Program-made: the position numbers and the translations under genes
Notes under the pieces: model-generated
The model's database searches: none
Told to the model about the DNA's origin: nothing
What the model saw: only the letters and a program-made list of their open reading frames with translations
Shown here: positions 30,138-48,282 of the stretch, piece after piece
Position numbering within the stretch: position 1 is the first letter of the stretch
How the letters are laid out: each line of letters starts with the position of its first letter
Source: Candidatus Omnitrophota bacterium
GTDB taxonomy: Bacteria > Omnitrophota > Gorgyraeia > Zapsychrales > Fredricksoniimonadaceae
Length of the DNA stretch: 64,000 nucleotides
NCBI GenBank assembly: GCA_013286575.1
Contig: JABDFL010000002.1
Span: forward strand, 11,143-75,142
Direction of reading: 5' to 3'

Positions 30138-31607
30138 TTAATAAGGCAGGATGACTTTGAAGGTGCTTCCCTGGGACATCCGGCTTTCGACCTGGATCTC
30201 TCCCTGGTGGAGTTTGGCGATCGTATGGGCAATATTCAGCCCTAAACCGCTGCCCGGGGTGTTTTTATCCGCACGGTAAAACTCTTCAAAAATCTTCTTC
30301 AAATTTTCAGGGGCGATGCCCGGCCCCGTATCGCTGATACAGCTTATGACCTTGCCGTGGCTGATCTCAATGCGCATATCAACACAGCCGCCTTCCGGCG
30401 TAAATTTGATGGCATTGTCGATAATATTAAAAAATAACCGGCGCAGATGAAACCTGTCGCCTGTGATCATCAAAGGCGGCGTGACGTTTTTGGTGTCCAT
30501 CCTGATCCCGATCCCTTTGTTGGCGGCCAAAAGACGGTTTTGTTCGACGATTTCATTAAAAAACTCGATAAAATCAAATTGCTCAAATTTAAACACCTCC
30601 TGGCTGTAACCCAATTTGGTCAATAATAATAAATCATCCACTGTTTTAAGTACACGTTGCGATTCTTCCATAATGATCCGCAAAGCCTGCTTGTACTCAT
30701 GGATGGAACGGTCACGGCGCAATAAAAGGTTCGCCTCCCCCTGAATGATCGTCAACGGGGTTTTTAATTCATGGGCCACGTGATAGCTGAATTGTTCAAT
30801 ATGTTTAAAAGATTTTTCCAGACGGGCGATCATCCCATTGAAAGATTCGATCAAAGACTCCATCTCCCGGTCAAAATGTTTGGTTTTGATCCGGGCAGAC
30901 AAATCCTGCTGTGTGATCCGGTCAGCCATATCGGTGATTTCATAAACCGGCTGCAGGATCCTGGCAGCCAATAATCTCCCGACAAAATTTGTCAAAAGCA
31001 GGATCAACGGCACGCTGATGGCAATGGAATACAGCCAGTTGCGCAGCTGCTGCAAAATAGGGTCCTGGGCGACACCTACCTGTATCAAATATTGACCAAC
31101 GGCCCTGTCGGTGAATTGCTCACTGATCACCCGGATATTCTTATGGTCCATATTCAAAGTCCTGAAAATGACCCCGCCGCGTTTAGGAAACTGCGTGTCT
31201 TCCAGAAAAATGGACCGCAGGCCTTTGTCCATATTGGAAGAACTAAACACTTCCTTCTGGCCTTTACTGACAAAATTGATATAGTCCCTGCTTAAATTAA
31301 AGGATTGCGCCTGGGCCCTCCATTTCTGGGAAACTTTCCAGGTCTTGAACTGGAGGATATTATCATTTCTCATGGCCATGGTTTTTCCAACGGCCTCTAC
31401 CAAGGCCTCATGACTTTCCCCCAAAACATTTAGATAAGACCTGATAGTCAAATCAACAGCCTGGGCCTTGATTTTAAGCTGCTGGTCTGTTTGCTGTAAA
31501 AAGGCATTGGAAATAAGATAGAGAACGCCGCTGAAGGCAATGAGGATAAGGCCTAAAATAGCCGTGTAAAGAATGCTGATCTCGAATTTAATGGAATTGA
31601 ATTTCAT
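30138..31607 (-). CDS. Membrane sensor histidine kinase (periplasmic loop-HAMP-HisKA-HATPase; CusS/BaeS-like)
   Basis: Two TMs flank a loop of about 150 aa. HAMP ILQPVYEITDMADRITQQDLSARI. H-box FSYHVAHELKTPLTIIQGEANLL. FFNIIDNAIKFTPEGG, ISDTGPGIAPE, PGSGLGLNIAHTIAKLHQG. Confidence 0.85.
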   Translation of the reverse strand: MKFNSIKFEISILYTAILGLILIAFSGVLYLISNAFLQQTDQQLKIKAQAVDLTIRSYLNVLGESHEALVEAVGKTMAMRNDNILQFKTWKVSQKWRAQAQSFNLSRDYINFVSKGQKEVFSSSNMDKGLRSIFLEDTQFPKRGGVIFRTLNMDHKNIRVISEQFTDRAVGQYLIQVGVAQDPILQQLRNWLYSIAISVPLILLLTNFVGRLLAARILQPVYEITDMADRITQQDLSARIKTKHFDREMESLIESFNGMIARLEKSFKHIEQFSYHVAHELKTPLTIIQGEANLLLRRDRSIHEYKQALRIIMEESQRVLKTVDDLLLLTKLGYSQEVFKFEQFDFIEFFNEIVEQNRLLAANKGIGIRMDTKNVTPPLMITGDRFHLRRLFFNIIDNAIKFTPEGGCVDMRIEISHGKVISCISDTGPGIAPENLKKIFEEFYRADKNTPGSGLGLNIAHTIAKLHQGEIQVESRMSQGSTFKVILPY

Positions 31608-32278
31608 GCGGAATTTTTCAGCATATACCCTGATCCGCGCAGGGTGTGGATCAACTTCTTCTTAAATCCATCGTCGACTTTATTGCGCAGATTGCGGATA
31701 TGGACGTCGATGACATTGGTCATGCTGTCAAATTGTTCATTCCATACATGTTCGGAAATCATGGAGCGGCTGATCACCTGGCCCGCGTTGAGCATGAGAT
31801 ATTCCAGCAACGCAAATTCTTTGGCCGTTAAAACCATCATTTTTCCCGTTCTCCTGACTTCGTGGTTGAGCTGGTTTAATTCCAGATCAGCCACTTTTAA
31901 AACAGAGGTCTTGGTTGCGGCCGGACGCCTTAACAGGACCTTGACCCGGGCCAGCAATTCTTCAAATGAAAATGGTTTGGTCAAATAATCGTCCGCACCG
32001 GCGTTAAGCCCCGTGACCTTGTCCTTCACTGCGGCCCGGGCGGTCAGCATCAGGATGGGAGTATTGATTTTTTTTGAACGCAGCTGACGGCACATGTCTA
32101 CCCCCTCGTATTTAGGGAGCATGATGTCAAAAATCATCAAATCATAAGGGTTGATTTCAGCCAGGTACAGCCCCTGTTCTCCGTCATAGGCGATGTCCAC
32201 GGCATAATGTTCTTCTTTGAGCCCCCGTGCAATGAAATCTGCGATACGCTTTTCATCTTCCACCACAAGGATCCGCAT
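31604..32278 (-). CDS. OmpR/PhoB-family response regulator (REC + winged helix; CusR/CopR-like)
   Basis: MRILVVEDEKRIADF, DLMIFDIMLPKYEG, ILMLTARA, DYLTKPF. wHTH LTAKEFALLEYLMLNAGQVISRSMISEHVW...IDVHIRNLRNKV. SD GAAGGAGGTG. Confidence 0.9.
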   Translation of the reverse strand: MRILVVEDEKRIADFIARGLKEEHYAVDIAYDGEQGLYLAEINPYDLMIFDIMLPKYEGVDMCRQLRSKKINTPILMLTARAAVKDKVTGLNAGADDYLTKPFSFEELLARVKVLLRRPAATKTSVLKVADLELNQLNHEVRRTGKMMVLTAKEFALLEYLMLNAGQVISRSMISEHVWNEQFDSMTNVIDVHIRNLRNKVDDGFKKKLIHTLRGSGYMLKNSA

Positions 32279-32399: not shown

Positions 32400-32855
32400 T
32401 TACAGAGCCGAAGCAATTGAGCCTTTAGCAGCCTTGAATTTATTTAAGATATACGGGCCTTTACTGCCGGATATGAAAAAATTGCCGTGAAGGACTTCTT
32501 TTAAAGCCCTGACAAGGTCTGTGCAAATATAATTCTTACACACATAACCTTTGGCCCCATATTGAAGGCATTTGAGGGCATAATCAGTTTCGTTATGCGC
32601 GGACAATATGATGGCGGGAATGCCCATCTCTTTGTCTTTCAGGGTTTGCAGTATGTTCAGGCCCCCTTCACGCTGCCCGTCGACAGAAATGTCTATCAGG
32701 GCCGCGTCAAAACGGCCTGTTGACACCAACCCCATGAATTCATCTTTTTGCCCCGCCACTGCCGCAATCTCCATTTCCTTAGACTCTTCGATAATCTCCT
32801 TCATCAAAGCAGGGATTAAAGGCTCGTCATCAATGATAATGATTTTTCTTTTCAT
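32400..32855 (-). CDS. Single-domain response regulator (REC only, NarL-type receiver without HTH)
   Basis: KIIIIDDEPLI, DAALIDISVDG, AIILSAHN, KGYVCKN. Confidence 0.8.
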   Translation of the reverse strand: MKRKIIIIDDEPLIPALMKEIIEESKEMEIAAVAGQKDEFMGLVSTGRFDAALIDISVDGQREGGLNILQTLKDKEMGIPAIILSAHNETDYALKCLQYGAKGYVCKNYICTDLVRALKEVLHGNFFISGSKGPYILNKFKAAKGSIASAL

Positions 32856-32907: not shown

Positions 32908-33327
32908 TTAATGTGAACAGTAACGGACCATTTTAAACCAGAACATGTCAATAATTTGTGCCAAGTCAATAAACCCCTGGAAATCAACAGGCTTACTGAG
33001 ATAGGCATTGCCCCCCAACGCGTAACACTTGCATATGTCCCCTGAAAACTCTGAATTTGAAAAGACCAAAACCGGAATATGCCCCCATCTAGGGTCGCTC
33101 TTAATATCGGACAAGACCTCCAGACCTTTTTTTCTGGGCATGTTCAGGTCAAGGATGATAAGGTCAGGTTCGGGGGCATTGGTAAAGGCCCCTTTCCCGC
33201 CGAGAAATTCAAGGGCTTCAATACCGTCCCTGACCATCAGTAAATCATGTTCAACCCTTGCCTCCTTAAATGCCTCTTTCATGATTTCCTGCTCGGGTTC
33301 ATTGTCCTCAACGACTAATATGTTCAT
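32908..33327 (-). CDS. Single-domain response regulator (Rcp1-like CheY-type)
   Basis: [46 protein letters not shown] overlap with the upstream kinase. Confidence 0.85.
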   Translation of the reverse strand: MNILVVEDNEPEQEIMKEAFKEARVEHDLLMVRDGIEALEFLGGKGAFTNAPEPDLIILDLNMPRKKGLEVLSDIKSDPRWGHIPVLVFSNSEFSGDICKCYALGGNAYLSKPVDFQGFIDLAQIIDMFWFKMVRYCSH

Positions 33328-34901
33328 ATGCCTTCTTTGACGGAAAAATGAAATGTCGTTCCTTCATCTACTGTTGAATCAACCCATATTTTCCCGCCAT
33401 GGTTTTCCACAATTTTTTTACATATGGCAAGCCCTATGCCGGTACCGGAATATTCGGATTTTCCGTGGAGCCTTTGAAACATATCAAAAATACGTTCCTT
33501 AAACCGGGAGTCAATGCCTATGCCGTTGTCCCTGACTGAAAAAACCCAGCCATTCCCTTCAGATCTGGCGGCGATTTGTATTTCCAGGGGCCTTTGACTC
33601 CTGTATTTGACTGCATTGACTATTAAATTCTGAAAAAGCTGGACCATTTCCAAATGATTGGTTTTTAGGACGGGCATTGCACCATATTGGATGGCTCCAC
33701 CCGCTTCATCGATAATCATTCTTAAATTGGCCAATACTTCCGTTAATACAGAGGAAACATCCACCATCTCAAAAGACTTCACTTTACCTATACAGCTGTA
33801 TTCCAATAGATCTTTGATCAGCCTTTGCGCCTGGTCCACGCCTTCTTTAATGAATTTTAAATATTGCCGCCCCCGGTCATCCAATTGGGATTGAAAACGT
33901 TTTTCCAGAAGGAAAACAAAAGAAGAAACCACATGCAGCGGTTCTTTAAGGTCATGGGAGGCCACATAGGCATATTCTTCCAGTTCTTTATTTGACCGGT
34001 TGAGTTCCTGGGTGAGCACCTTGAAGGATTCCTCCGTGCTTTTGATCTTGTCTATATCGGTGCAACTGGCGATCCAACTGATATTTTCCCCGTTCTTTAT
34101 TTCGGGCACGACCCTCACTAAATGCCACCTGTAGATGCCGTCCCGGGCGGAACGCAGGCGCATTTCAATCTCGCCAATCTGCGTATTTTGACGGGACATA
34201 CGCAGCCAAAATGCCAGGAATTTCCTTCTGTCTTTGGGATGGACCAGTAATTTCCAATCTACGTCCGATTTAAATCCCGTATATTCCAGCCACCGTTCAT
34301 TGCAATACTCGACAAACCCTGAAGGTTTTATCTTAATAATGCTGTGCGGGACCGCGTCGGCCAAATGGGCGTAACTGCGGAAGCTTTCCTGTTTTAATTC
34401 AAAGATCTGCCGTTCTTTTTCCTGTGACTCAATCTGCCTTAATAAAACGGCCTGGCGTTTGATCTGCAAATTTTTTTCGAAAAGATCGACAAATATGTTT
34501 ATTTTTGATTTGAGAACAAACGGATCAAAGGGCTTAAAAATATAATCCACTGCCCCGCTTTCATATCCCTGGTTGATATGGCGGATTTCTTTGTTGATGG
34601 CCGTCACAAAAATAATGGGAGTGTCCCGGGAACGGTAATTTTCCCGCAATAGCTTGGCGGTCTCAAAGCCGTCCATCTCCGGCATTTGAACATCAAGGAG
34701 GATCACTGCAAAATCATCAAATACAGCATGCTGCAAAGCTTCCTGGCCGCTGCCGGCTTTAAAAAGATTATACCGGTCACAGGAAAGCACCGCCTCCAAG
34801 GCAAGCAACCCATCCGGCCGGTCATCCACCACCAGAATATTGGTCCTCGTCAACGGCTGGGTCTCAACTCCTGCCTTAGTGTCCGTTATTTGTTCAGCCA
34901 T
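33324..34901 (-). CDS. Hybrid histidine kinase REC-PAS-HisKA-HATPase
   Basis: REC: [41 protein letters not shown]-box [55 protein letters not shown]. Start overlaps the upstream gene by 16 nt. Confidence 0.85.
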
Positions 34902-37900
34902 GAATACATCACCGACAGAAGACGGTCTGTGTCTACAGGTTTAGTAATATAATCAGAGGCCCCGGCGTCCAAACACTGTTCACGGTCCCCTTTCATTGCT
35001 TTGGCTGTCAAAGCAATAATAGGCAAAGATTCAAATTTGGATATTTTTCGTATCATTTTAATGGCATCAAAACCATTCATCTCCGGCATCATGATATCCA
35101 TCAATATTAAATCCGTGTCCGGTTTTTCATTTAAACGGCGGATCCCTGATTTACCGTTATCAGCATGGGTGACAATCATCCCCCAAGGCTCAAGGACGCT
35201 TGTCAATGCATAGATATTACGCATATCGTCATCCACGATAAGGATCCTTTTGCCTTTAAAATCAGCGTTCTTCGGTAAGGTTGGGGCAACAATTTCCCGG
35301 TTGTTGCTGCTGCTTTTGACGGTTTCCGCGCCGACATATTTCTCCGGCAAATAAAGCGTGAAGACACTGCCCATGCCAGGAGCACTTTCCACCTTGATAA
35401 TACCTCCCAACAAACGGGCAATTTCACGGCTGATGGTGAGGCCCAAACCAGTACCTCCGTATTTACGGCTGGTCGTCCCGTCAGCCTGCTGAAATGCCTC
35501 AAAAATAATATTTTGTTTGTCCACAGGGATACCGATACCGGTATCTCTGACGGCAAAGGCAAGGACAGAAGGGCTTTTATCCAGGGTCTCTATGCCGAAG
35601 CGCTTTTCTCTTTCCACGACCTTGATGTACATCTTGACTTCACCTTTTTCCGTGAATTTAATGGCATTGGACAGGAGGTTCTTGAGGATTTGCTGTAAAC
35701 GGTTATTGTCCGTAAAAACAGTTTTAGGCAGGTTCCCGTTGGCATTAATAGTGAAGTTGAGGTTTTTGTGCTCTGCCAGCGGACGGAAATTATGCTCCAG
35801 GTACTCATAAATCTGGGGCAGCTGGATTTCCTGCGGTTCGATGGACATTTTACCGGCTTCTACCTTGGAAAGATCAAGGATCTCGTTGATCAGGGTCAGC
35901 AGGTCCTGTCCCGTCGAGTGGACGGTCGAAGCATACTTGATCTGGTCCGGCGACAAATTATTATCTTTGTTTTCAGACAGGGCTTTGGAAAGGATAAGCA
36001 GGCTGTTCAAAGGAGTGCGCAGCTCATGGGACATGTTGGCCAGGAATTCTGATTTGTATTTGGAAATCAGGGACAGCTGTTCGGCTTTTTCCTCCAACGA
36101 GAGGCTCGCCATCTCAACTTCTTTATTCTTTAACTCCAAGAGCTTGGCTTTGTCTTCAAGCTCCTTGGCCTGGTTTTCCAATTCCGAGTTGGAACGTTTG
36201 ACTTCCTGCAGGAGCTCTTCGGTCCTCATGGTGGAAGAGATCATGTTTAAGATGACCCCGACGCTGTCCATGAGCTGGTCCAAGAAGTTGAGATAATTGA
36301 CGCTAAAAGATTGGAAGCTGGCCAGCTCAATAACGGCTTTTAACTCTCCTTCAAAAACGACCGGCAAAAGAAGGATATTTTGCGGCGTTGCTGCCCCTAA
36401 GCCGGAGGTGATGGAGATATACTCTTGAGGTGGTTTAGTGATTAATATCCGTTTCTTCTCAAAGGCGCACTGCCCCACCAGGGATTCCTTGAGACGATAG
36501 GTGCTGGAAAGATTTTTACGTTCATTAAACGCATAACTCGCAATGAGGGTCAATACGGTTTCATTGTCCTCCTGCTGGGCCACAAAGAAGGCCCCGTGTT
36601 GAGCGTCGACGATGGGTGTTAATTCCGACATGATCAATTGGGCCACCGCAGTCAGGTTTCTCTGGCCTTGCATCATGCCGGAGAAGCGGGCCAGGTTTGT
36701 TTTTAACCAGTCCTGGTCTTTGTTTTGGGCGGTGGTGTCTTTTAAGTTGGTAATCATCTGGTTGATATTGTCCTTGAGCGCCGCCACTTCCCCTTGGGCC
36801 TCGACGGCAATGGATCGTGTCAAATCACCCTTCGTAACAGCGGTCGAAACCTCGGCAATCGCACGCACCTGGGAAGTCAGGTTCCCTGCCAGCTGATTGA
36901 CGTTGACAGTCAAGTCTTTCCAGATACCGGAGGCGCCGGGGACCTTGGCCTGGCCGCCGAGCTTTCCTTCAATACCTACTTCACGGGCCACGGTTGTTAC
37001 CTGGTCGGCAAAGGTACGCAGGGTGTCTGTCATGCTGTTGATTGTTTCCGCCAGGCCTGCCACTTCTCCTTTGGCTTCCAAAACGAATTTTTCACTTAAG
37101 TCCCCGTTAGCAACAGCAGTCACGACCTTGATGATGCCGCGTACTTGTTTGGTCAAATTACCGGCCATGAAATTGACGTTATCCGTCAAGTCCTTCCACA
37201 CACCGGAAGCTCCGGGCACCTTGGCCTGGCCGCCGAGCTGGCCTTCGATACCCACTTCACGGGCCACGGTCGTTACCTGGTCAGCAAAGGTACTGAGCGT
37301 GTCGATCATGTTGTTGATGGTTTCTGCCAGGGCCGCCACTTCTCCTTTGGCTTCCAGAACGAATTTTTGATTCAAATCGCCGTTTGCGACGGCGGTAACG
37401 ACCTTGACGATACCGCGCACCTGTTTGGTCAAATTACCGGCCATGAAATTGACGTTATCCGTAAGATCCTTCCAGGTACCGGAAACACCTTTGACGTCCG
37501 CCTGACCGCCTAATTTCCCTTCTGTACCGACTTCCTTGGCCACACGGGTAACTTCCGCCGCAAATGAATTGAGTTGGTCCACCATGGTGTTGATCATGTT
37601 CTTCAACTCCAGGATTTCTCCCCTGGCGTCTACCGTGATCTTCTGCGACAAGTCCCCCTTGGCAACGGCGGTCGTAACCTTAGCGATGTTACGCACCTGA
37701 TTGGTCAAGTTACCGGCCATGAAATTGACATTTTCCGTTAAATCTTTCCAGGTACCTGAAACACCCTTGACCTCTGCCTGACCGCCTAATTTCCCTTCTG
37801 TACCGACTTCCTTGGCCACACGGGTGACTTCCGCTGCGAAAGAGTTGAGTTGGTCCAACATGGTGTTGATGGTGTTTTTTAATTCCAGGATTTCTCCTTT

Positions 37901-40309
37901 AGCATCGACGGTAATCTTCTGTGACAAGTCTCCCTTGGCAACAGCGGTCGTAACCTTAGCGATGTTACGCACCTGATTCGTTAAGTTACCGGCCAAGACG
38001 TTGACGTTATCCGTAAGATCCTTCCAGGTACCGGAAACACCTTTGACGTCTGCCTGACCGCCTAATTTCCCTTCCGTACCGACTTCCTTGGCCACACGGG
38101 TAACTTCCGCCGCAAATGAATTGAGTTGGTCCACCATGATGTTGATGGTGTTTTTAAGTTCCAGAATTTCACCTTTAGCATCGACGGTAATCTTCTGTGA
38201 CAAGTCTCCCTTGGCAACAGCGGTCGTAACTTTAGCGATATTACGCACCTGATCTGTTAAGTTCCCGGCCAAGACGTTGACGTTATCCGTAAGATCCTTC
38301 CACACACCTGATACCCCTTTGACAAAAGCCTGACCGCCGAGTTTACCGCCGGTACCGACTTCCTTGGCCACACGGGTAACTTCCGCCGCAAATGAATTGA
38401 GTTGGTCCACCATGGTGTTGATCATGTTCTTCAACTCCAGGATCTCTCCCTTGGCGTCTACCGTGATTTTCTGCGACAAGTCCCCTTTGGCCACAGCGGT
38501 CGTAACTTTAGCAATGTTACGCACCTGATTGGTCAAGTTACCCGCCATGAAATTAACGTTATCCGTAAGATCCTTCCAGGTACCGGAAACACCTTTGACG
38601 TCCGCCTGACCGCCCAGCTTTCCTTCTGTACCTACTTCCTTGGCCACACGGGTGACTTCCGCCGCAAATGAATTGAGTTGGTCCACCATGATGTTGATGG
38701 TATTTTTAAGCTCCAGAATTTCACCTTTAGCATCGACGGTGATCTTCTGTGACAAGTCTCCCTTGGCAACAGCGGTCGTAACTTTAGCGATATTACGCAC
38801 CTGATTCGTCAAGTTACCGGCCAGCTGATTAACGTTATCTGTGAGATCCTTCCAGGTACCGGAAACACCTTTGACGTCGGCCTGACCGCCTAATTTCCCT
38901 TCTGTACCGACTTCCTTGGCCACACGGGTAACTTCCGCTGCGAAGGAGTTAAGTTGGTCCACCATGATGTTGATGGTGTTTTTAAGTTCTGAGATTTCTC
39001 CTTTGGCGTCAACCATGATTTTCTGCGACAAGTCTCCCTTGGCAACAGCGGTCGTAACCTTAGCGATGTTGCGCACCTGATTCGTCAAGTTACCGGCCAA
39101 AACATTGACGTTATCCGTCAGGTCTTTCCATGTACCGGACACTCCTTTGACGTCTGCCTGACCGCCTAATTTCCCTTCCGTACCAACTTCCTTGGCCACA
39201 CGGGTGACTTCCGCCGCAAATGAATTGAGTTGGTCCACCATGATGTTGATGGTATTTTTTAATTCCAGGATTTCTCCTTTGGCGTCTACCGTAATTTTCT
39301 GCGACAAGTCTCCTTTGGCAACGGCGGTCGTAACTTTAGCGATGTTACGCACCTGATTCGTTAAGTTACCGGCCAAAACGTTGACGTTATCCGTAAGATC
39401 CTTCCACGTACCGGAAACACCCTTAACATCGGCCTGACCGCCTAATTTCCCTTCCGTACCGACTTCCTTGGCCACACGGGTAACTTCCGCTGCGAAGGAG
39501 TTAAGTTGGTCCACCATGATGTTAATGGTGTTTTTAAGCTCTGAGATTTCTCCCTTGGCATCGACGGTGATTTTCTGTGACAAATCTCCCTTGGCTACAG
39601 CAGTTGTAACCTTAGCGATGTTGCGCACCTGATTCGTTAAGTTACCGGCCAAGACGTTGACGTTGTCCGTCAAGTCTTTCCAAACGCCCAATACCCCTTT
39701 AACATCCGCCTGGCCGCCTAATTTACCTTCCAGACCGACTTCCTTGGCCACGCGCGAAACTTCCGACGAGAAGAAACTCAACTGATCAAGCATGGAATTA
39801 ACGACTGTCCCGATCCTTAAATATTCCCCTTTCAAAGTCCGTCCTTCAATTTCCAAAGGCATTTTTTGGGACAAGTCGCCTTTAGCAACCGATGTGATGA
39901 CACGCGCAAATTCATTGGTGGGTTGGACGAGGTTAGAGATAAGAGAATTGATGGAATCCATCCCCGTGGCCCAACCGCCTTTGACCGGCCCGATGGAAGC
40001 ACGCTCGGTTAATTTACCTTCTTCGCCGACAATAGCGCTGACACGGGCAAATTCATTGATCATATTTTCGTTCAAATCCAGGATATCATTAAGGACTTCC
40101 CCTATTTCACTGGGCAAGCCATCTTCCTCAACAGGAAAACGCACGGAAAGATTTCCCTGCCGCACGGCTTTGGCTATATGCAGCATCTTCCTTAATTGGT
40201 CCTTTTTAGGATCTCCCCCATTCCCGTTCTCAAAAACAGGCGCTGCAGGCGTTGCTGCCCTGTTATTTTCTTTATTTTCATTCTCTAAAAACCGCACTGT
40301 TGGGGGCAT
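34886..40309 (-). CDS. Giant soluble hybrid histidine kinase: poly-HAMP array (about 12 x 92 aa)-GAF-HisKA-HATPase-REC
   Basis: No N-terminal TM. Repeated [95 protein letters not shown] ([27 protein letters not shown]). [67 protein letters not shown]: [51 protein letters not shown] precedes ATG 40309. Confidence 0.9.
36690..40180 (-). repeat. In-frame tandem repeat array, period 276 bp (92 codons), encoding the HAMP units
   Basis: Period confirmed at DNA level: 37921 vs 39301 (offset 1380 = 5x276) and 37441 vs about 38545 (offset 1104 = 4x276). The outer units are diverged. Confidence 0.9.
37520..39727 (-). repeat. High-identity core of the array: 8 consecutive near-identical 276-bp units
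   Basis: Units differ from the commonest unit at no more than about 7 of 92 residues. In one 120-nt comparison, 114/120 nt were identical. Confidence 0.85.
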
Positions 40310-40494
40310 AATTTCTCCTTGCTTATTTAATGGTACGCTCGAAATTTAAATAGGAAAAAAATGAAGGAAAAAATATTTTTATCATAGTTAAAAATATGGA
40401 TTGATATTTAGTGAGGCTAGTTTACTGATATGCGGAGAATTGTGTATGGCTTGCTTCTACTTTTTACTGACTTTTTTCCACCAAAGCGGTCTTT

Positions 40495-40764
40495 TCAGGA
40501 TTCCAGGACTTTTTTCTTTTGTGCGAATTCTTCCGCATCAATTTCACCGGAAGCAAATCTTTTCTTTAAGGTATCCATGGCTGAATCCTGTTTCTTAGGA
40601 TCATCCATTGGCCTTCCTGTTTGAGATTTTGAAGAATTCTGGAACAAATAGACAAAACCGAATACGGCCAGTAATAAAATAATAAGAATGAATAATGCCC
40701 CCGTATTATGCCAATAATCCTGGTACCAATAAACATCATGCCAATGACCGAATTCATCGTACAT
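40495..40764 (-). CDS. SHOCT-domain membrane protein with His/Trp/Tyr-rich N-terminus
   Basis: MYDEFGHWHDVYWYQDYWHNTG, one TM, C-terminal SHOCT-like LKKRFASGEIDAEEFAQKKKVL. SD GGAGGA. Confidence 0.65.
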   Translation of the reverse strand: MYDEFGHWHDVYWYQDYWHNTGALFILIILLLAVFGFVYLFQNSSKSQTGRPMDDPKKQDSAMDTLKKRFASGEIDAEEFAQKKKVLES

Positions 40765-40821: not shown

Positions 40822-41421
40822 TCATCTCCCATACATCGTTTGTAATTGTGAGATCCTTGGGAATACGGAATAAAATTCTCCCTGAGGGCCCACATACCCA
40901 TTACCCGATCTCCTAAGAGTGACGGCCACATACCCGCCGCCATGACTGGGTACATTGACCGTAACAGCGTTGGGTGTATTGATGACCGCTACAGGCGCTG
41001 CCTGGACAGGCTGTGAAACGACCTGGTAGCCGCTGGGAGTTTGTACATAATAGGTCCCATTATTCACATAATAAGTGGCACCGTTAATCACGACCGGTTG
41101 AAAATCCGGCGGGATGGTGGCCACTACAGCCCCTACAGGAGGAGATACGATCACATAATCCCCGTTGACGTAGCTGTAATACAATCCGTCATAATAATAG
41201 TATCCCACACCTCCGACCCAAACCCTGAAATGCCTGGCCGGGAGATAATGGCTGTGCCAGCCGTAATGCGGATGATCATGCCAACGGTAATAATGATGGT
41301 TGTCATGATATCCCGGAGAACCCAAACTCACTCCCACCCCCCAATCGGCGTAAGAATATTTGGGCCAAACGCATAAAATCAACGCCCCTAAAACAACAGG
41401 CAAAATATACAAATTTTTCAT
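40822..41421 (-). CDS. Secreted His/Tyr-rich protein of unknown function
   Basis: Signal peptide MKNLYILPVVLGALILCVWPKYSYA, then HDNHHYYRWHDHPHYGWHSHY and Tyr-rich GATYYVNNGTYYVQTPSGY. SD AAGGAGG. Confidence 0.6.
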   Translation of the reverse strand: MKNLYILPVVLGALILCVWPKYSYADWGVGVSLGSPGYHDNHHYYRWHDHPHYGWHSHYLPARHFRVWVGGVGYYYYDGLYYSYVNGDYVIVSPPVGAVVATIPPDFQPVVINGATYYVNNGTYYVQTPSGYQVVSQPVQAAPVAVINTPNAVTVNVPSHGGGYVAVTLRRSGNGYVGPQGEFYSVFPRISQLQTMYGR

Positions 41422-41455
41422 TTTGACCTCCTTGATTGATGTTCCGTCTGCAGTG

Positions 41456-41495
41456 TAACAAAATCAAAATGAAGACAAAATGAAAACAAAATTAA
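41456..41495 (-). promoter_or_regulatory. Copy (a) of the recurrent 40-nt element
   Basis: TAACAAAATCAAAATGAAGACAAAATGAAAACAAAATTAA, 34 nt upstream of ATG 41421. Confidence 0.5.
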
Positions 41496-41522
41496 ACCCA
41501 GGCATTTTATCTCAGGGAGGAT

Positions 41523-41562
41523 TTTTTGCCTGGTTATGTGTTGGGACATAACCAGGCAAAAA
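41523..41562 (-). other. Perfect 17-bp stem / 6-nt loop hairpin in the 280-bp intergenic region
   Basis: Plus strand TTTTTGCCTGGTTATGT-GTTGGG-ACATAACCAGGCAAAAA. The A/T runs are part of the stem, so this is not a canonical intrinsic terminator in either direction. Confidence 0.6.
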
Positions 41563-41643
41563 TGGGGAAACAAACTGATTACTCATGGTGCGGATGATGG
41601 CGGGGGCTATTGAATTGATTTTTATCCATTTCATTTTTTAGAA

Positions 41644-41695
41644 TAACAAATCTAAGATTAAGAGAAGATGAAAATAAAATGAAAATAACCATTAA
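41644..41695 (-). promoter_or_regulatory. Copy (b) of the recurrent element, with one extra 11-12-nt unit
   Basis: TAACAAATCTAAGATTAAGAGAAGATGAAAATAAAATGAAAATAACCATTAA. It starts 6 nt after the stop at 41702. Confidence 0.5.
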
Positions 41696-41701
41696 TCCTG
41701 C

Positions 41702-41962
41702 CTACCGGTAAAGATCATTCATACGGACCAGTTCCTTCGGCGGATGGATTTCCACTTCGGCCTTAGAAGCTGAAGATACCAATCTTACAAGTTTCTGCAC
41801 CAAAACAGCCAGGCGGATTTCCCGTTTCATGTGCCAGGCCAGTGCTTTCTGCATACGGTCCTCGGAAATCCTGCCAAGTCCATTACGCAATAGAATAATC
41901 ATTTCCCGCTGTTTACGATGGATCTCTACAAAATACTGCCGATAAATCTCTTCAGTAAACAT
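41702..41962 (-). CDS. Small helical protein, unknown function (86 aa)
   Basis: Start at ATG 41960-41962 (MFTEEIYRQYF...), preceded by GAGGGGG; the track ORF begins at a TTG. Last gene of the EPS-like operon. Confidence 0.5.
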   Translation of the reverse strand: MFTEEIYRQYFVEIHRKQREMIILLRNGLGRISEDRMQKALAWHMKREIRLAVLVQKLVRLVSSASKAEVEIHPPKELVRMNDLYR

Positions 41963-42185
41963 CTTTTTCCCCCTCTTTGACCTGCTCAATGAGCTGCCTC
42001 ATGAATATTTTATGTTCGTAACTTTCTCTATGAAGAGTGTTTAATGTCTCTTTGATTTTATTCCTTAAATCCTTATCAAATCCCGAAAGATAAAGGGTGT
42101 TCATAATATGCTCTGAATAAAGCAATATGCCCTCTTCAATCTTGCGGCCCTGCTCTAAAAAAACCAGCAATTCATCTCTGGTCAT
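41952..42185 (-). CDS. Small helical protein, unknown function (77 aa)
   Basis: MTRDELLVFLEQGRKIEEG...; overlaps the GH8 stop by 14 nt and the next gene by 11 nt (translational coupling). Confidence 0.5.
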   Translation of the reverse strand: MTRDELLVFLEQGRKIEEGILLYSEHIMNTLYLSGFDKDLRNKIKETLNTLHRESYEHKIFMRQLIEQVKEGEKDVY

Positions 42186-43326
42186 AGGTTTCTTCCTGGT
42201 TTAAAAGTTCTGTGACCCAGACAATGCTGTTAACATAATATTCCCTGGGATTTTGATAATACGCCCCTTTAAACCCCCTATGGATCGAAGCGCGCAGTTT
42301 AGTAATGGCCTGGGCCGCAAGATCATGGTTATCGGTCAATTCAAAAGTGACATAGGCAACCGCATACATTAATGGGCTTTCCTGCGTATCTTTTAAAGGC
42401 TTTCCGTCATAACTGTACTCGCTCATCAATTTGCCCCTGTTTTTTAACTCCCCTTCAAAAAAATTGGAGAATTTTTCCAATATATCAAGCGCCCGCGGGT
42501 CTCTGTTGAAAAACTCATCAATACCGATGCGAAAAGGCACGCGCACAGCTTCCCAGGCAAAATTACCGGATTTCCCGTCATAAGAAGAAAGGTTTCCGCT
42601 GCGGTCCACACTGACCCAATCAGGCACAAGACCGACCCCCGCCACCCCATTAAAACTCTTCTGGGCTTGCGCCGACAAAATATAGGAAGTATTGACAAGC
42701 TCAAGCCAGCGCGGGTCATGGTCAAAGGCATAAAATGATTTAAAATAAGCGGGTGAATAATAAGAAAGATTTTGCGGGATTTTATCCAGCGAAGATGGAG
42801 AGTCGATGATCCAGGGAAGAAGATATCTGTGATACTTGAAAACGACCGTCAATATATTAAGGATATCTTTGAGCGACCGCCCTGCCATGTCTGCGTAAGA
42901 ATCATTCTTCCATTGCTGGGAAGCAAGGACCAGGGCCATGGCATAATCGATGTCCGCATCAGTGGCCGGCATCCCGTCACGGACCGAACCGTCGATATAA
43001 TGCCATGATAAAAGATGGTCGCCGAATTTTTCCTGGCGCGAAAGATTATCTTCGGTCCACCGCAGCAGGTTGTCAAAGGCCGGGCGGTCTCCCATCACCA
43101 CAGCCCTTAACATGGCATTGGCCTGGCCTTCGGAGGTGGTGTCCTGCTCAGGGAAGCGCAGCACCCTGCCATCGGATTCTATAAAATAAGATTTATACCC
43201 CTGCCATGTTTCCGAAAGGATATGGGAAGACCGGCGCGACTGGCTGTCCTGGTGCGTCGATAAAACCCAGGCAAATAAAAGAAACGCCCCGAAACCGGAG
43301 AGTAATATCAGGAATATCGACCTCAT
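42172..43326 (-). CDS. Glycoside hydrolase family 8 (BcsZ-like endo-beta-glucanase)
   Basis: DTTSEGQANAMLRAVVMGDRPAFDNLLRWTEDNL is the GH8 catalytic-region motif. Signal anchor MRSIFLILLSGFGAFLLFAWVL. ATGA overlap with the synthase stop. Confidence 0.75.
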   Translation of the reverse strand: MRSIFLILLSGFGAFLLFAWVLSTHQDSQSRRSSHILSETWQGYKSYFIESDGRVLRFPEQDTTSEGQANAMLRAVVMGDRPAFDNLLRWTEDNLSRQEKFGDHLLSWHYIDGSVRDGMPATDADIDYAMALVLASQQWKNDSYADMAGRSLKDILNILTVVFKYHRYLLPWIIDSPSSLDKIPQNLSYYSPAYFKSFYAFDHDPRWLELVNTSYILSAQAQKSFNGVAGVGLVPDWVSVDRSGNLSSYDGKSGNFAWEAVRVPFRIGIDEFFNRDPRALDILEKFSNFFEGELKNRGKLMSEYSYDGKPLKDTQESPLMYAVAYVTFELTDNHDLAAQAITKLRASIHRGFKGAYYQNPREYYVNSIVWVTELLNQEETYDQR

Positions 43327-44933
43327 AACTCCTCCACTGTCTCTTCGCTGCCGCCGATTTCGTTGAAATAAAACACGGCGGAAAACACGAGCGCGTGATA
43401 AAACAGCCAAAAAACATTGCAAAGTATTCCGGGGTTGCGCTCATAAACCCATCTTAAAATCCCCCAGGTCATGGCGACCAAATTTAATGACCATAAAAAG
43501 ATTTGCACCCATAAAAAAGTATACGGCACTTGTGTTGCACCGCTTTTGTTGGTCACTTGAAAACCGACAGGAACGTTAAAAATCCCGAACAGCGTCGCCC
43601 TCAAATAAATCGGCACGGACAGCATAGTTAAAAGGTGGGTTTTTAAAATATAGGAGAACTTATAGTGGCGCAAACCCATGCTCGAATAAAAAACAGCCAG
43701 CGCCATCAGGAAATAAGGCACAAAGGTGAGGGAATACACGTAAGGGTCCATAAAAAATGCCGGGACATTAAAAAATGTATAGATAAGCTGGCAGAGAAAA
43801 AGACACAGGTAGGCCCACCCGATAAAATAATAGGTGCCGGTGATGAAATAATCAAACCATTGCATAAAACTCAAACTCCACGGCCTGGTGAAAAAACTTT
43901 TAACGACTTTCTTAAAGACCTGGGTATTGCCCAAAGACCAGCGGGATTGCTGTTTAAAATAGGCCACCAGATCTTCCGGTGCCATGCCAAAAACAAGGGG
44001 CATGTTGACATAGAGGCTCTTCCATCCCTTCATATGCAGTTTTAAGGACGTCGCAAAATCCTCCGTCACCGTGTTCTCATCAAACCCTCCGACATCCAGG
44101 AGCGCTTGCCTGCGTATGACGACATTAGTCCCGCAGCACATCATCGCCCCGTTACTGTTTTTCCCTTCACAAATATATTCATAGAAGATCGCTTGTTGAA
44201 AATTTGTCGTCAATGAAACCCTGTTGGAAGAACAGTTTGTATAAAATTGGGGGGTCTGGACAAAGGCCAATTTTTCCTGTTTTTCCAAAATGGGCACCAA
44301 AACTTTCAGGAAATGCGGCATGGGGTTTTGATCAGCATCAAGAATGGCGATGTATTTCTCCGTTATGATTTTGTTGACCTCATTGATGATCCCGGCCTTG
44401 GCACCCCGGTGCACATCCCTGGAATATATTTCTGTCCCGAATTCCGATGAAAGTTCCCTGGCTTCCCGTTTAAACTCTTCAATGGAGGAATCATCCAGAA
44501 AATAAATCTTCTTGTTTTTATAATCCAGGTTGTAACACGTGACCAGGGTCCGTTCAACAACCTCCCTCGGTTCATGGCGGGCCGGGATCAGGATCGCCAC
44601 CGGCGGCTCATTAGCCAAAGCCTCTGCCGGGTACCTGTCCGGCCGGCGGTCCAGGCGCAGGACATTGAAAAAATAGCCGATGGCATGAAACATAATAAAA
44701 AATTCCGAACCCAGGAATAATAAGGCCAATATCCTCTCTTCCAGGTTGCAACTGGCGTAATACAAAAAGACAGAACGGAAGAACACGTAGTTGACCAGAA
44801 AAATCAACACCGTAATGACCAGCACCTGCGAGGGGGCGGGTTTTAGGTCGCCCTGGCGCGGGAACAGTACTTTAGAAAGCAAAGATGAGCGAGACTGTTT
44901 GTTCATCGTCTTTATAAATCCCCGGATGATCAT
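43323..44933 (-). CDS. Processive GT2 beta-glycan synthase, cellulose-synthase-like, no C-terminal PilZ domain
   Basis: PPVAILIPARHEPREVVERTL, KIYFLDDSS, IAILDADQNP (DxD), VTEDFATSLKLH (TED), KQQSRWSLGN (QxxRW), VGFQVTNKSG. The protein ends after the last TMs. Alternative start at ATG 44906. Confidence 0.8.
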   Translation of the reverse strand: MIIRGFIKTMNKQSRSSLLSKVLFPRQGDLKPAPSQVLVITVLIFLVNYVFFRSVFLYYASCNLEERILALLFLGSEFFIMFHAIGYFFNVLRLDRRPDRYPAEALANEPPVAILIPARHEPREVVERTLVTCYNLDYKNKKIYFLDDSSIEEFKREARELSSEFGTEIYSRDVHRGAKAGIINEVNKIITEKYIAILDADQNPMPHFLKVLVPILEKQEKLAFVQTPQFYTNCSSNRVSLTTNFQQAIFYEYICEGKNSNGAMMCCGTNVVIRRQALLDVGGFDENTVTEDFATSLKLHMKGWKSLYVNMPLVFGMAPEDLVAYFKQQSRWSLGNTQVFKKVVKSFFTRPWSLSFMQWFDYFITGTYYFIGWAYLCLFLCQLIYTFFNVPAFFMDPYVYSLTFVPYFLMALAVFYSSMGLRHYKFSYILKTHLLTMLSVPIYLRATLFGIFNVPVGFQVTNKSGATQVPYTFLWVQIFLWSLNLVAMTWGILRWVYERNPGILCNVFWLFYHALVFSAVFYFNEIGGSEETVEEL

Positions 44934-47575: not shown

Positions 47576-48257
47576 TTTCCGCCCTCTGATAAACTTTTAT
47601 GGCTTCTTCATCCCTGCCAAGGAGACGAAGCTCATCCCCCATCATCGTGAGGACCTCTTTTTTTGTATCTCCATCATCCAACAAAGCCTGGAGCTCCCTT
47701 TCGGCACGTTCGTGATCTCCTGCCGCAGAAACAACCTGCGCATGCTGATAACGCAGATCATTGTCGTCCGGAGCATAGGAAAGCAGAATGTCCATCTGGC
47801 CGATGGCATCAGCGTATTTCTTCTGCGCCAAAAGCACATTGGCGTATTTCCTGCGGACTTCCATGGATGGTTTTTTGGCCAAAACCCGTTCATAATATCC
47901 CTGGGAAAGAGTGTATGCTTTTTCGGTAAAAGCCATGTCGGCTAAAGACTCACTTACTTTAGGGTCAGTGGGGAATCTATTGTTTATTTCTTCAAGGACA
48001 CGGCGTCCTTCACCCTCCCGGTTAAGGTGTTCATAAGTCCATACCAGTTTCCAGGCAATATTTTTGTCTTGGGGATTCATACGGTAGGCGGAAAGTAAAT
48101 AAGGTAAAGCATAGGAGTATTCACCTTCTTCAAAAAAACGCCCTCCTAATAAAGAAAATTTATAAAAAGTATGCGTCGCATTAAAAACTACGTATGTAGC
48201 GCTAACAATTGACACAGCAACAATCATCCAGACTACCGTACGATAGGTTTGTTTCAT
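47568..48257 (-). CDS. Membrane-anchored TPR protein
   Basis: Start at ATG 48255-48257 (MKQTYRTVVWMIVAVSIVSATYVV, TM anchor) with GGAG upstream; the longer ORF would overlap the DUF2934 gene. Confidence 0.65.
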   Translation of the reverse strand: MKQTYRTVVWMIVAVSIVSATYVVFNATHTFYKFSLLGGRFFEEGEYSYALPYLLSAYRMNPQDKNIAWKLVWTYEHLNREGEGRRVLEEINNRFPTDPKVSESLADMAFTEKAYTLSQGYYERVLAKKPSMEVRRKYANVLLAQKKYADAIGQMDILLSYAPDDNDLRYQHAQVVSAAGDHERAERELQALLDDGDTKKEVLTMMGDELRLLGRDEEAIKVYQRAENG

Positions 48258-48282
48258 CTGCCAGCTCCGGACTGAGATTTCC

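What the first reader, a model, noticed from the sequence alone, without database searches (positions are those of the whole stretch)
34886..40309. 1,807-aa soluble kinase built on a 3.5-kb in-frame array of 276-bp HAMP repeats, resembling fungal group III (Nik1/Os-1) kinases
Seen: from about 39,727 to 37,520 the minus strand encodes 8 consecutive 92-aa units ([92 protein letters not shown]). Each differs from the commonest unit at 7 residues or fewer. They are flanked by 1-2 diverged units upstream and 3 downstream (to about 36,690). Comparing 37,921-38,040 with 39,301-39,420 (offset 1,380 = 5 x 276) gives 6 differences in 120 nt, and all six are synonymous third-position changes. So the units are preserved at the protein level and are not merely recent copies. 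There is no TM segment. GAF, HisKA, HATPase and REC follow the array. Established: 90-92-aa HAMP repeat units with the same GGQA..GV.G.W..LT.NVN.MA.NLT.QVR.IA.VT.AVA.GDL signature define the fungal group III hybrid kinases (osmosensing, fludioxonil target), which carry about 5-6 units. Inference: a rod-like poly-HAMP integrator roughly twice the fungal length, whose unit number could change by in-frame recombination.
Basis: partly seen in the sequence, partly recalled or inferred. Interest (0 to 1): 0.75.

Follow-up and report, generated by a model that had tools for sequence, protein, structure and literature searches.

The report
Bacterial poly-HAMP sensor kinase (AskA type)
This is a real, intact gene for a soluble signalling kinase with a long rod of 25 stacked HAMP relay domains, and it belongs to a large, already described bacterial family (Myxococcus AskA/AskB) that is a cousin of the fungal osmosensing kinases, so it is not a new kind of protein.

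Summary
There is a 1,807-aa ORF at 34886-40309 (-) with a strict 276-bp/92-aa period. Eight units are nearly identical, one upstream and three downstream are diverged, and there is no TM segment. GAF-HisKA-HATPase-REC follows the array.

The protein is a typical bacterial "kinase-associated poly-HAMP" hybrid kinase:
- It aligns without gaps to the solved AskA array (PDB 9TRK, E=1.5e-109).
- The family was described in 2020 and 2026, with 4,778 members in NR90.
- Relatives occur in at least 596 species genomes. The best-scoring ones carry 9-17 units. AskB has 31 HAMPs and one fungus has 26 units.

Fungal group III kinases are more distant. They lack the GAF domain, and their kinase core is 33% identical, against 43-50% for bacteria.

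What I add:
- The near-identical units differ at 9-21% of nucleotides (dN/dS about 0.05).
- Six orthologous genes from separate metagenome samples keep 11 units with the same position-specific residues.
- Units are closer to same-genome paralogues than to their orthologues, which indicates patchy gene conversion.
- Core unit number varies (6-8) only among 75-77% relatives.

Verdict: new member of a known kind. Interest is low to moderate.

The parts
34886..40309 (-). Whole gene: 1807-aa soluble hybrid histidine kinase (poly-HAMP - GAF - HisKA - HATPase - REC)
   Evidence: ORF; Pfam domains; exact sequence present in public collection on an 84,058-bp contig
40315..40320 (-). Ribosome-binding site AAGGAG, 5 nt upstream of the ATG at 40309
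   Evidence: read directly from the sequence
40202..40309 (-). N-terminal extension (aa 1-36), low complexity, no domain hit, variable among orthologues
   Evidence: sequence; it is only weakly matched in the 9TRK alignment, whose conserved part starts near aa 37
40040..40201 (-). First canonical HAMP (aa ~37-90), corresponding to the 'D1' HAMP that opens AskA-type arrays
   Evidence: gap-free alignment of aa 16-313 to 9TRK_A residues 28-325; D1 definition from PMC13446029
39728..40003 (-). Diverged unit 1 (aa 103-194), carrying a 5-residue longer connector (GDL spacing 97 instead of 92)
   Evidence: the same insertion is present in AskA
37520..39727 (-). Eight near-identical 276-bp/92-aa di-HAMP units (units 2-9, aa 195-930)
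   Evidence: dN/dS about 0.05; longest exact shared run 92 bp (units 6 and 9)
36968..37519 (-). Units 10 and 11 (aa 931-1114), a distinct subtype conserved as the penultimate units in relatives
36692..36967 (-). Unit 12 (aa 1115-1206), the specialised last di-HAMP that joins the GAF linker
   Evidence: a 'u12-type' unit is last in relatives from other phyla too
36248..36661 (-). GAF domain (aa 1217-1354)
   Evidence: Pfam GAF_2 E=1.5e-14
35852..36055 (-). HisKA/DHp (aa 1419-1486), with the phospho-acceptor His1428 (HELRTP) at 36026-36028
35342..35710 (-). HATPase_c catalytic domain (aa 1534-1656); N box NAIKFT, G1 DTGIG and G2 GTGLG are all present
34913..35245 (-). Receiver domain (aa 1689-1799) with Asp1738 (DIMMP) at 35096-35098
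33324..34901 (-). Downstream partner gene: REC-PAS-HisKA-HATPase kinase (525 aa), overlapping the poly-HAMP gene by 16 bp
   Evidence: found directly downstream in four of the five close orthologue loci (the fifth contig ends there) and in the 76% relative
32908..33327 (-). Single-domain response regulator (139 aa), 4-bp overlap with the gene before it
   Evidence: conserved in orthologue loci
32400..32855 (-). Second single-domain response regulator (151 aa)
   Evidence: a 145-152-aa REC protein follows REC139 in L001, L084/L087 and L086/L088, but not in L085, where an OmpR-type regulator follows instead
30138..32278 (-). OmpR-type response regulator (31604-32278) and a HAMP-HisKA-HATPase kinase (30138-31607), co-directional
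   Evidence: the same pair lies near the orthologue in L087
24938..29069 (-). Context: trehalose genes OtsA (GT20, 27549-29069), OtsB (26758-27552) and a GH15 trehalase-like gene (24938-26821), co-directional with the signalling cluster
   Evidence: OtsB and GH15 also lie within 10 kb of the orthologue in L087, in a different arrangement

Best explanation
The gene encodes a bacterial 'kinase-associated poly-HAMP' hybrid histidine kinase of the AskA/AskB type. It probably comes from an Omnitrophota genome.

Shown:
- The array holds 25 concatenated HAMP domains: one opening canonical HAMP followed by 12 modules of non-canonical plus canonical HAMP, each module 92 aa.
- The array is followed by GAF, DHp, catalytic and receiver domains, with all catalytic motifs intact.
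- There is no membrane segment and no upstream sensor domain.

Inferred from the solved AskA fragments and the published model: the protein is a parallel homodimer whose HAMPs stack into one continuous four-helix rod. Alternating domain types let an axial helix rotation, or a change in bundle stability, pass from module to module into the GAF/DHp junction. This sets autophosphorylation of His1428 and transfer to Asp1738. From there the signal most likely goes to the REC-PAS-kinase encoded directly downstream and to the two single-domain receivers.

The input is unknown. My best guess, an inference, is a cytoplasmic physico-chemical or solute cue such as osmotic state. Fungal homologues are osmosensors, M. 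xanthus AskA/B/C respond to glycerol, and trehalose genes sit in the same gene cluster.

Evolution of the array (shown): near-identity of the units is held by strong purifying selection together with patchy intragenic gene conversion, not by recent amplification. Unit number and position-specific residues are fixed among close relatives. Only the number of homogeneous core units changes over longer times.
For: Identity:
- Pfam HAMP/HAMP_2/GAF/HisKA/HATPase/REC.
- Gap-free alignment of aa 16-313 to AskA 6-HAMP crystal chain 9TRK_A, E=1.5e-109. 76% identity over 157 aa of the repeat.
- The interface Trp is present in all 12 non-canonical HAMPs.
- The family definition in PMC13446029 matches the architecture.
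- More than 8000 homologues in the protein search and at least 596 species genomes.

Catalytic competence: H1428, N/G1/G2 boxes and D1738 are present.

Partner genes: a REC-PAS-HK lies directly downstream here, in 4 of 5 close orthologue loci (the fifth contig ends there) and in the 76% relative. This parallels askB-askC.

Evolution:
- dN/dS about 0.05 and dS about 0.8 between units.
- Amino-acid differences between orthologous units are 0-2, with unit-specific variants conserved.
- The nearest DNA neighbour is a same-genome paralogue for 37 of 48 units.
- Exact runs between same-genome units reach 92-276 bp, against 14-45 bp between orthologues.
- Column-permutation test for clustered identity: P<0.0005 for the summed runs and 0.017 for the global maximum.
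- Codon identity is 0.675 (same genome, different unit), 0.579 (orthologues) and 0.552 (cross paralogues). Codon bias alone predicts a gap of only 0.03.
- Core unit counts of 6, 7 and 8 occur in 75-77% relatives, each with the three terminal units conserved.

Osmotic link: OtsA/OtsB/GH15 are in the cluster and near the orthologue in L087.
Against: - No experiment bears on this protein.
- The input signal is unknown even for AskA and the fungal kinases.
- The trehalose linkage is seen in only two arrangements, and is absent from the 9.6 kb downstream of the L088 orthologue.
- A crude motif scan found no Hpt domain in the window, so the route from Asp1738 to the downstream receivers is not defined.
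- Dimer structure and helix rotation are inferred by homology, not modelled here.
- Omnitrophota assignment rests on the name of one partial protein in the same 90% cluster.
- All six orthologous sequences are metagenome assemblies, presumably from short reads, so strain mixing could add noise to the orthologue distances.
Confidence: 0.8

Rival explanations
1. First reader's reading. The protein is specifically akin to fungal group III (Nik1/Os-1) kinases, for example through transfer to or from fungi. On this view it is an exceptional double-length version whose unit number changes readily by in-frame recombination.
For: The unit signature is shared with fungal arrays: 67-69 of 92 residues match the consensus units of Dichotomocladium and Calocera kinases. 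Two fungal proteins appear among the top hits. Core unit number differs among 75-77% relatives.
Against: - Bacterial consensus units from seven other phyla are closer, at 78-81 of 92.
- The kinase core is 33% identical to fungi and 43-50% to bacteria.
- The fungal proteins have no GAF domain.
- Arrays of 9-17 units are found among the best-scoring bacterial homologues, and one fungal array has 26 units.
- Unit number is identical in six diverged orthologues.
Confidence: 0.04
2. The array length or unit order is an assembly artefact: a collapsed or expanded repeat in a short-read metagenome assembly.
For: The window is a metagenome contig. Several cluster members are truncated in or after the array (P0122, P0125, P0127), which shows that assemblies do sometimes break there.
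Against: - The longest exact repeat inside the gene is 92 bp, and no k-mer of 99 or longer is repeated. Reads and k-mers of that length therefore resolve every unit.
- Six full-length orthologues from different samples have 11 GGQA units with the same unit-specific residues in the same order.
- Homologous arrays are present in records deposited as complete chromosomes, for example Streptomyces NZ_CP089312.1 and Gemmataceae OY969623.1.
Confidence: 0.02
3. The near-identical units are simply young copies from a recent intragenic amplification. Neither special selection nor gene conversion would then be needed.
For: [quoted passage not shown] One orthologue (L085) has two units identical at 276 of 276 nt.
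Against: - Core units differ at 9-21% of nucleotides, with dS 0.4-2.3.
- Unit-specific amino-acid variants are shared by orthologues that themselves differ at 12-16% of nucleotides.
- The same pattern holds in 54 loci from many phyla, with median pS 0.51 and pN 0.07.
Confidence: 0.03
4. The array is not mainly a signal conductor. It could instead be a binding platform for DNA or partner proteins, or a spacer or scaffold, with the GAF domain as the true sensor.
For: - AskB, and in one assay AskA, bound promoter DNA in vitro, and AskA/B/C bind each other and MrpC/FruA.
- The di-HAMP unit is 85-88% identical across phyla, far more than the kinase core at 43-50%. This implies constraint on exposed residues too.
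- Pfam reports SpoIIID and HTH_6 matches.
Against: - The HTH-type Pfam matches have no individually significant stretch. They cover about 30 residues of HAMP helix and also appear in the two fungal arrays, so they look like summed chance matches.
- The AskA structures show tightly coupled HAMP bundles compatible with rotation relay.
- Mutations in fungal arrays change kinase output.
Confidence: 0.11

Closest known systems
AskA (MXAN_0712) and AskB (MXAN_6735) of Myxococcus xanthus; the 'kinase-associated poly-HAMP' family of Coles et al., Protein Sci 2026 (PMC13446029); PDB 9TRJ/9TRK
   Same: - Soluble, with an opening canonical (D1) HAMP followed by repeated modules of non-canonical plus canonical HAMP, each 92 aa.
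- Conserved interface Trp and junction Gly residues.
- GAF-DHp-CA-REC follows the array.
- Near-identical modules within one array.
- A second REC-containing kinase is encoded directly downstream, as with askB-askC.
- The N-terminal 300 residues align to the AskA crystal construct without gaps.
   Different: - 25 HAMPs, against 21 in AskA and 31 in AskB.
- Only one receiver domain, whereas AskA has at least three (a Rec3 is named in PMC7643160) and the longer homologues appear to carry extra receiver domains.
- Probably from Omnitrophota rather than Myxococcota.
- About 50% identity to a Myxococcota relative in the GAF-to-REC part.
- No functional data.
Fungal group III hybrid histidine kinases (Nik1, Os-1, TcsC, Bos1); here represented by the poly-HAMP kinases of Dichotomocladium elegans (P0003) and Calocera cornea (P0020)
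   Same: Soluble hybrid kinase with 92-aa di-HAMP repeats carrying the same sequence signature (67-69 of 92 consensus identity). HisKA-HATPase-REC output. No TM segment.
   Different: - The fungal proteins have no GAF domain between the array and the kinase.
- Their kinase core is only 33% identical.
- From general knowledge, classical Nik1/Os-1 proteins have about 5-6 repeats and feed the Ypd1-Ssk1-HOG pathway.
- Nik1/Os-1 itself was not aligned here.
Chemoreceptor-associated poly-HAMP arrays and the multi-HAMP receptor Aer2
   Same: Soluble receptors with concatenated alternating canonical and non-canonical HAMPs. They share the same stacking logic and the same proposed rotation relay.
   Different: They use different HAMP sequence groups (A/B rather than C/D), and Phe replaces Trp at the interface. 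The output is a methyl-accepting domain, not a kinase, and the origin is considered independent. The NCBIfam Aer2 hit here (337 bits against a cut-off of 1200) reflects only HAMP similarity.

Membership tests
Bacterial kinase-associated poly-HAMP hybrid kinases (AskA type) | [quoted passage not shown] | tested here: met
   Pfam HAMP x11 and HAMP_2 x12. Strict 92-aa spacing of GGQA and GDL motifs. 13 canonical plus 12 non-canonical domains gives 25 HAMPs.
Bacterial kinase-associated poly-HAMP hybrid kinases (AskA type) | Array opens with a distinct canonical 'D1' HAMP and is collinear with AskA | tested here: met
   aa 16-313 align without gaps to 9TRK_A residues 28-325, E=1.5e-109. This includes the first-HAMP segment and the 5-residue longer connector of the third HAMP.
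Bacterial kinase-associated poly-HAMP hybrid kinases (AskA type) | [quoted passage not shown] | tested here: met
   A G-x-W motif is present in all 12 non-canonical HAMPs. The GKLGGQ, GV.G and KGDL glycines are present in every unit.
Bacterial kinase-associated poly-HAMP hybrid kinases (AskA type) | [quoted passage not shown] | tested here: met
   GAF_2 1217-1354, HisKA 1419-1486, HATPase_c 1534-1656, REC 1689-1799.
Bacterial kinase-associated poly-HAMP hybrid kinases (AskA type) | Soluble; no transmembrane segment and no upstream input domain | tested here: met
   The maximum 19-residue hydropathy is 1.61, in a charged GAF stretch. Only 36 low-complexity residues precede the first HAMP.
Bacterial kinase-associated poly-HAMP hybrid kinases (AskA type) | Parallel homodimeric four-helix-bundle rod; active kinase | not testable with these tools
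   Inferred from 76% identity to the solved AskA array and from intact H, N, G1, G2 and D motifs. I did not run a monomer AlphaFold model, because it cannot show the dimeric bundle.
Fungal group III hybrid histidine kinases (Nik1/Os-1) | N-terminal array of about 92-aa HAMP repeats with the GGQA...W..LT.NVN...NLT.QVR.IA.VT.AVA.GDL signature | tested here: met
   The consensus unit is 67-69 of 92 identical to the consensus units of two fungal poly-HAMP kinases.
Fungal group III hybrid histidine kinases (Nik1/Os-1) | Array joined directly to HisKA-HATPase-REC, with no GAF domain | tested here: not met
   The window protein has a GAF domain. Fungal P0003 and P0020 have none, and their alignment to the window protein begins only after the GAF.
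Fungal group III hybrid histidine kinases (Nik1/Os-1) | Kinase core groups with fungal kinases rather than bacterial ones | tested here: not met
   The HisKA-to-REC region is 33% identical to the fungal proteins, 43-48% to full-length alignments from six other bacterial phyla, and 64-69% to near relatives. This is an identity comparison, not a tree.
Fungal group III hybrid histidine kinases (Nik1/Os-1) | Direct alignment to Nik1/Os-1; osmosensing; fludioxonil or ambruticin sensitivity | not tested
The phenotypes need experiments.

The most novel reading that the evidence does not exclude
The array may be a length-calibrated, position-coded cooperative switch rather than a passive relay. Three observations fit this idea:
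- The di-HAMP module is held at 85-88% identity across bacterial phyla, far above the catalytic core.
- Within a genome the modules are homogenised by patchy gene conversion, yet each position keeps its own few diagnostic residues.
- The module number stays fixed across orthologues whose synonymous sites are heavily diverged.

On this reading the number of near-identical, marginally stable modules sets the sensitivity of a cytoplasmic physical sensor (osmotic strength, crowding or temperature) that controls compatible-solute (trehalose) metabolism. That would make it a bacterial counterpart of the fungal HOG osmosensor.
Probability: 0.2. Interest if true: 0.5.

Novelty: new member of a known kind. 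Interest (0 to 1): 0.25.

Why it matters
As a gene it adds little. Thousands of such kinases are known, the family has crystal structures, and both longer and shorter arrays are documented.

Its value lies in what this set of orthologues shows about how poly-HAMP arrays evolve. Protein-level near-identity of the modules does not come from recent amplification. It is maintained by strong purifying selection and by gene conversion between modules, while module number and position-specific residues stay fixed. The published account ("consistent with intragenic amplification") does not examine this, and a literature search found no paper on it.

The finding suggests a testable idea: module number and marginal stability are functional parameters. 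The conserved downstream REC-kinase and the nearby trehalose genes offer a concrete starting point for finding the still unknown input of this family. That input also matters for the fungal fungicide targets.

Tried and rejected
1. Conserved-partner test by tblastn. I searched the 525-aa downstream kinase against 86 loci. 80 of 81 loci gave an adjacent hit, but most hits cover only the receiver domain at 30-40% identity, about 470-500 nt past the end of the tblastn match to the window's C-terminal (GAF-to-REC) region. These are probably extra receiver domains of the longer poly-HAMP proteins themselves. I therefore rely only on the full-length matches (L001, L002, L012, L020, L084-L086). A look at ORFs in L034 and L006 did not settle gene boundaries, and I dropped it.

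2. Codon bias as an explanation for same-genome units being closer than orthologues. Array GC3 differs among genomes (0.49-0.58). However, pooled codon usage predicts a within-versus-between difference of only 0.03, against 0.12 observed. Rejected as the main cause.

3. HTH/DNA-binding domains. The Pfam SpoIIID, HTH_6, PseudoU_synth and PilJ hits have no individually significant stretch and recur in fungal arrays. I treat them as artefacts of summing weak matches over repeats.

4. Rfam scan of the window: nothing found.

5. Hpt search by motif: nothing found. The test is crude.

6. Naive fixed-offset comparison of the C-terminal 400 aa failed for L084 because of an indel. I ignored those values.

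7. Structure prediction was not run. A monomer model of an obligate dimer would add nothing to a solved homologue at 76% identity.

8. The genome-contig scan found no close relative above 80% identity, so it did not identify the organism.

9. The promoter scan of the 5' region found nothing above chance on the gene's strand.


Full report
**1. Checking the observation**

The minus strand carries one uninterrupted ORF, 34886-40309, of 1807 aa. It starts at an ATG preceded by AAGGAG.

Tandem Repeats Finder reports a 276-bp period with 8.8 copies at 37340-39765, and a second, more diverged 2.1-copy stretch at 36896-37484.

In a 92-aa register the layout is as follows:
- The GGQA motif recurs 11 times at exactly 92-residue spacing.
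- Units 2-9 (window 37520-39727) differ from their consensus at 3, 0, 2, 1, 5, 3, 2 and 7 residues.
- Units 10-12 differ at 27, 32 and 42 residues and end at 36692.
- One strongly diverged unit lies upstream.

Pfam confirms HAMP (E=8e-119), HAMP_2, GAF_2, HisKA, HATPase_c and Response_reg in that order. A hydropathy scan finds no membrane segment.

**2. What it is**

Counting the GDL/GNL motif of canonical HAMPs and the G-x-W motif of the intervening domains gives 13 canonical and 12 non-canonical HAMPs, 25 in all.

The first 313 residues align without a single gap to PDB 9TRK chain A (E=1.5e-109). The repeat unit is 76% identical to it over 157 residues. 9TRK and 9TRJ match the 6-HAMP and 4-HAMP GCN4-fused fragments of Myxococcus xanthus AskA described by Coles et al., Protein Sci 2026 (PMC13446029).

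That paper defines "kinase-associated poly-HAMP arrays" by these features:
- an N-terminal D1 HAMP followed by non-canonical/canonical di-HAMP repeats;
- a conserved interface Trp and junction glycines;
- GAF-DHp-CA-REC downstream;
- no upstream input domain.

[quoted passage not shown] It gives 21 HAMPs for AskA and 31 for AskB. Every sequence-level defining feature is met here. The protein is a member of this family, with an array length between those of AskA and AskB.

**3. Distribution and array length in relatives**

The protein search returned 8000 hits at E<=1e-10, which is the candidate ceiling. The best 120 are nearly all bacterial HAMP-GAF-kinase-REC proteins of 1,600-2,900 aa. They come from Acidobacteriota, Cyanobacteria, Myxococcota, Verrucomicrobiota, Chloroflexi, Actinobacteriota and Proteobacteria. 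Two fungal proteins are also among them.

All 120 keep the 92-residue spacing. Bacterial arrays have 9-17 GGQA units, and the Calocera cornea protein has 26. This top-120 list is ranked by summed bit score, which favours long arrays.

A scan of one genome per species found at least 596 genomes with a relative. These include Nostoc, many Streptomyces, Gemmataceae and Kitasatospora, some deposited as complete chromosomes.

An 11+1-unit array is therefore ordinary for bacteria, and "twice the fungal length" is not a distinguishing property.

**4. How the array evolves**

*Within the window.* Among the eight core units, nucleotide differences are 24-59 per 276 nt while amino-acid differences are 1-10. 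Mean dN is 0.039, mean dS is 0.80, and the ratio is about 0.05.

*Orthologues.* I fetched five orthologous genes from other metagenome samples (94-96% protein identity).
- All have 11 GGQA units.
- At the protein level each unit matches its positional counterpart with 0-2 differences. Unit-specific variants are therefore conserved, for example VLGVW in unit 2, [10 protein letters not shown] in unit 4, and GGKLGGQAF...LTDQVR in unit 7.
- At the DNA level the orthologous units differ at 12-16% of sites, so these lineages are well separated.

*Evidence for gene conversion.*
- For 37 of 48 core units the nearest DNA neighbour is another unit of the same genome, not the orthologue.
- Exact shared runs between same-genome units reach 92 bp in the window and 107-276 bp in four of the five orthologues (53 bp in L086). 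Between orthologues they reach only 14-45 bp.
- A column-permutation test on the window's own units shows that identities are clustered. P<0.0005 for summed run length and 0.017 for the global maximum.
- At codons whose amino acid never varies, codon identity is 0.675 for same-genome paralogues, 0.579 for orthologues and 0.552 for cross-genome paralogues. Differences in codon usage predict a gap of only 0.03.

The simplest reading is patchy gene conversion between units on top of strong purifying selection, with module number and position-specific residues held fixed.

*Longer timescales.* In relatives at 75-77% identity the three C-terminal specialised units are conserved, but the homogeneous core has 6 or 7 units instead of 8. 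Module gain and loss therefore happen, but slowly.

*Family-wide.* In 54 loci from many phyla, core units that are at least 90% identical to their consensus have median pS 0.51 and pN 0.07. The window is typical in this respect too.

**5. Assembly artefact?**

The longest exact repeat inside the gene is 92 bp, and no k-mer of 99 or more is repeated. Ordinary reads therefore resolve the array. Together with six concordant independent assemblies, this makes a collapsed or expanded array very unlikely.

**6. Relationship to fungal group III kinases**

The consensus unit is 78-81 of 92 identical to consensus units from seven other bacterial phyla, and 67-69 of 92 identical to two fungal ones.

The HisKA-to-REC core is 43-48% identical to full-length alignments from six other bacterial phyla, but only 33% identical to the fungal proteins. 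The fungal proteins have no GAF domain.

The fungal kinases are homologous cousins, as the literature already suggests. This protein has no special tie to them. I could not obtain Nik1 or Os-1 sequences, so that direct alignment remains undone.

One point is worth noting. The di-HAMP unit is far better conserved across phyla than the catalytic core. This implies constraint on exposed as well as core residues.

**7. Genomic context and likely function**

The gene heads a co-directional run on the minus strand:
- a REC-PAS-HisKA-HATPase kinase that overlaps it by 16 bp;
- a single-domain receiver with a 4-bp overlap;
- a second single-domain receiver;
- an OmpR-type regulator with its own HAMP kinase;
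- two small membrane or DUF proteins;
- OtsA, OtsB and a GH15 trehalase-like enzyme;
- further kinases.

The REC-kinase is conserved directly downstream in the four close orthologue loci whose contig extends past the gene, and in the 76% relative. The 139-aa receiver is present in all four close orthologue loci. A second ~150-aa receiver follows in three of them, but not in L085, where an OmpR-type regulator follows instead. This echoes askB-askC in M. xanthus, where the downstream hybrid kinase AskC interacts with AskA/AskB through receiver domains.

In orthologue locus L087 the OmpR/HAMP-kinase/OtsB/GH15 block lies upstream instead of downstream. Trehalose genes thus stay close in two arrangements. 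They are absent from the 9.6 kb downstream in L088.

Fungal homologues are osmosensors, and the Ask kinases respond to glycerol and ambruticin. Given that, an osmotic or solute-stress input is the best available guess, but it remains an inference.

All catalytic motifs are intact. A crude motif scan found no Hpt domain.

**8. Mechanism**

This section is inferred from homology and the published model. A parallel dimer forms one continuous four-helix rod of 25 tightly stacked HAMPs. Canonical and non-canonical domains reverse the sense of helix rotation alternately, so a conformational change can pass along the array to the GAF/DHp junction and set kinase output.

Where the signal enters is not known for any member. 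Candidates are the N-terminus, the array as a whole, the GAF domain, or partner proteins.

**9. Organism**

The exact protein sequence is on an 84,058-bp public metagenome contig. A partial member of its 90% cluster is named Candidatus Omnitrophica/Omnitrophota. I regard this assignment as tentative.

**10. Verdict**

This is a new member of a known, recently well-described family. The added value is the evidence on how the array is maintained: purifying selection plus gene conversion, with a fixed module number. I did not find this in the literature searched. Interest is low to moderate.

Noticed in passing
window 24938-29069 (-): Trehalose genes OtsA (GT20), OtsB and a GH15 trehalase-like enzyme are co-directional with the signalling cluster. 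OtsB and GH15 also lie within 10 kb of the orthologous poly-HAMP gene in L087, but on the other side of it.
   Followed up: partly
window 5308-8346 (-): A 1012-aa fusion of an amino-acid permease (AA_permease_2, residues 21-427) to PAS-HisKA-HATPase. It may act as a transporter-sensor kinase.
   Followed up: no
window 21970-24867 (-): A 965-aa protein with two HisKA and two HATPase_c matches around a receiver domain (PAS-HK-REC-HK), that is, a tandem double kinase. The 64-kb window is unusually dense in two-component genes, with at least 7 kinases and 6 receiver proteins.
   Followed up: no
window 34886-40309 (-); also P0003 and P0020: Pfam gives significant whole-protein E-values for SpoIIID, HTH_6 (RpiR), PseudoU_synth_1 and other families. 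None of these has an individually significant stretch, and all lie on HAMP helices. The same false-looking hits occur in the two fungal arrays. This bears on the published suggestion that AskA/AskB carry partial HTH DNA-binding domains that are absent from fungal kinases.
   Followed up: partly
consensus di-HAMP unit (window 37520-39727) compared with homologues: The 92-aa unit is 85-88% identical between this genome and Cyanobacteria, Myxococcota, Acidobacteriota, Chloroflexi, Actinobacteriota and others. The kinase core of the same proteins is only 43-50% identical. A relay module better conserved than the enzyme it controls is unexplained.
   Followed up: partly
L085 3001-8406 (orthologue): Units 3 and 5 of this orthologue are identical at 276 of 276 nt, and units 8 and 9 share a 176-bp exact run. 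This looks like a very recent whole-unit conversion that did not change unit number.
   Followed up: partly
window 40495-40764 (-): An 89-aa ORF with one hydrophobic segment and a C-terminal SHOCT domain (E=9e-10) lies just upstream of the poly-HAMP gene. A SHOCT protein is also upstream of the orthologue in L083.
   Followed up: partly
window 40822-48368 (-): Upstream neighbours are a DUF6515 Tyr/Gly-rich secreted protein, a GH8 glycosidase, a cellulose-synthase-like GT2 and three TPR proteins. Together these look like an exopolysaccharide (bcs-like) cluster.
   Followed up: no
window 55998-58229 (-) and 821-2878 (-): Two large ORFs (743 aa and 685 aa) have no Pfam match at E<=1e-4.
   Followed up: no
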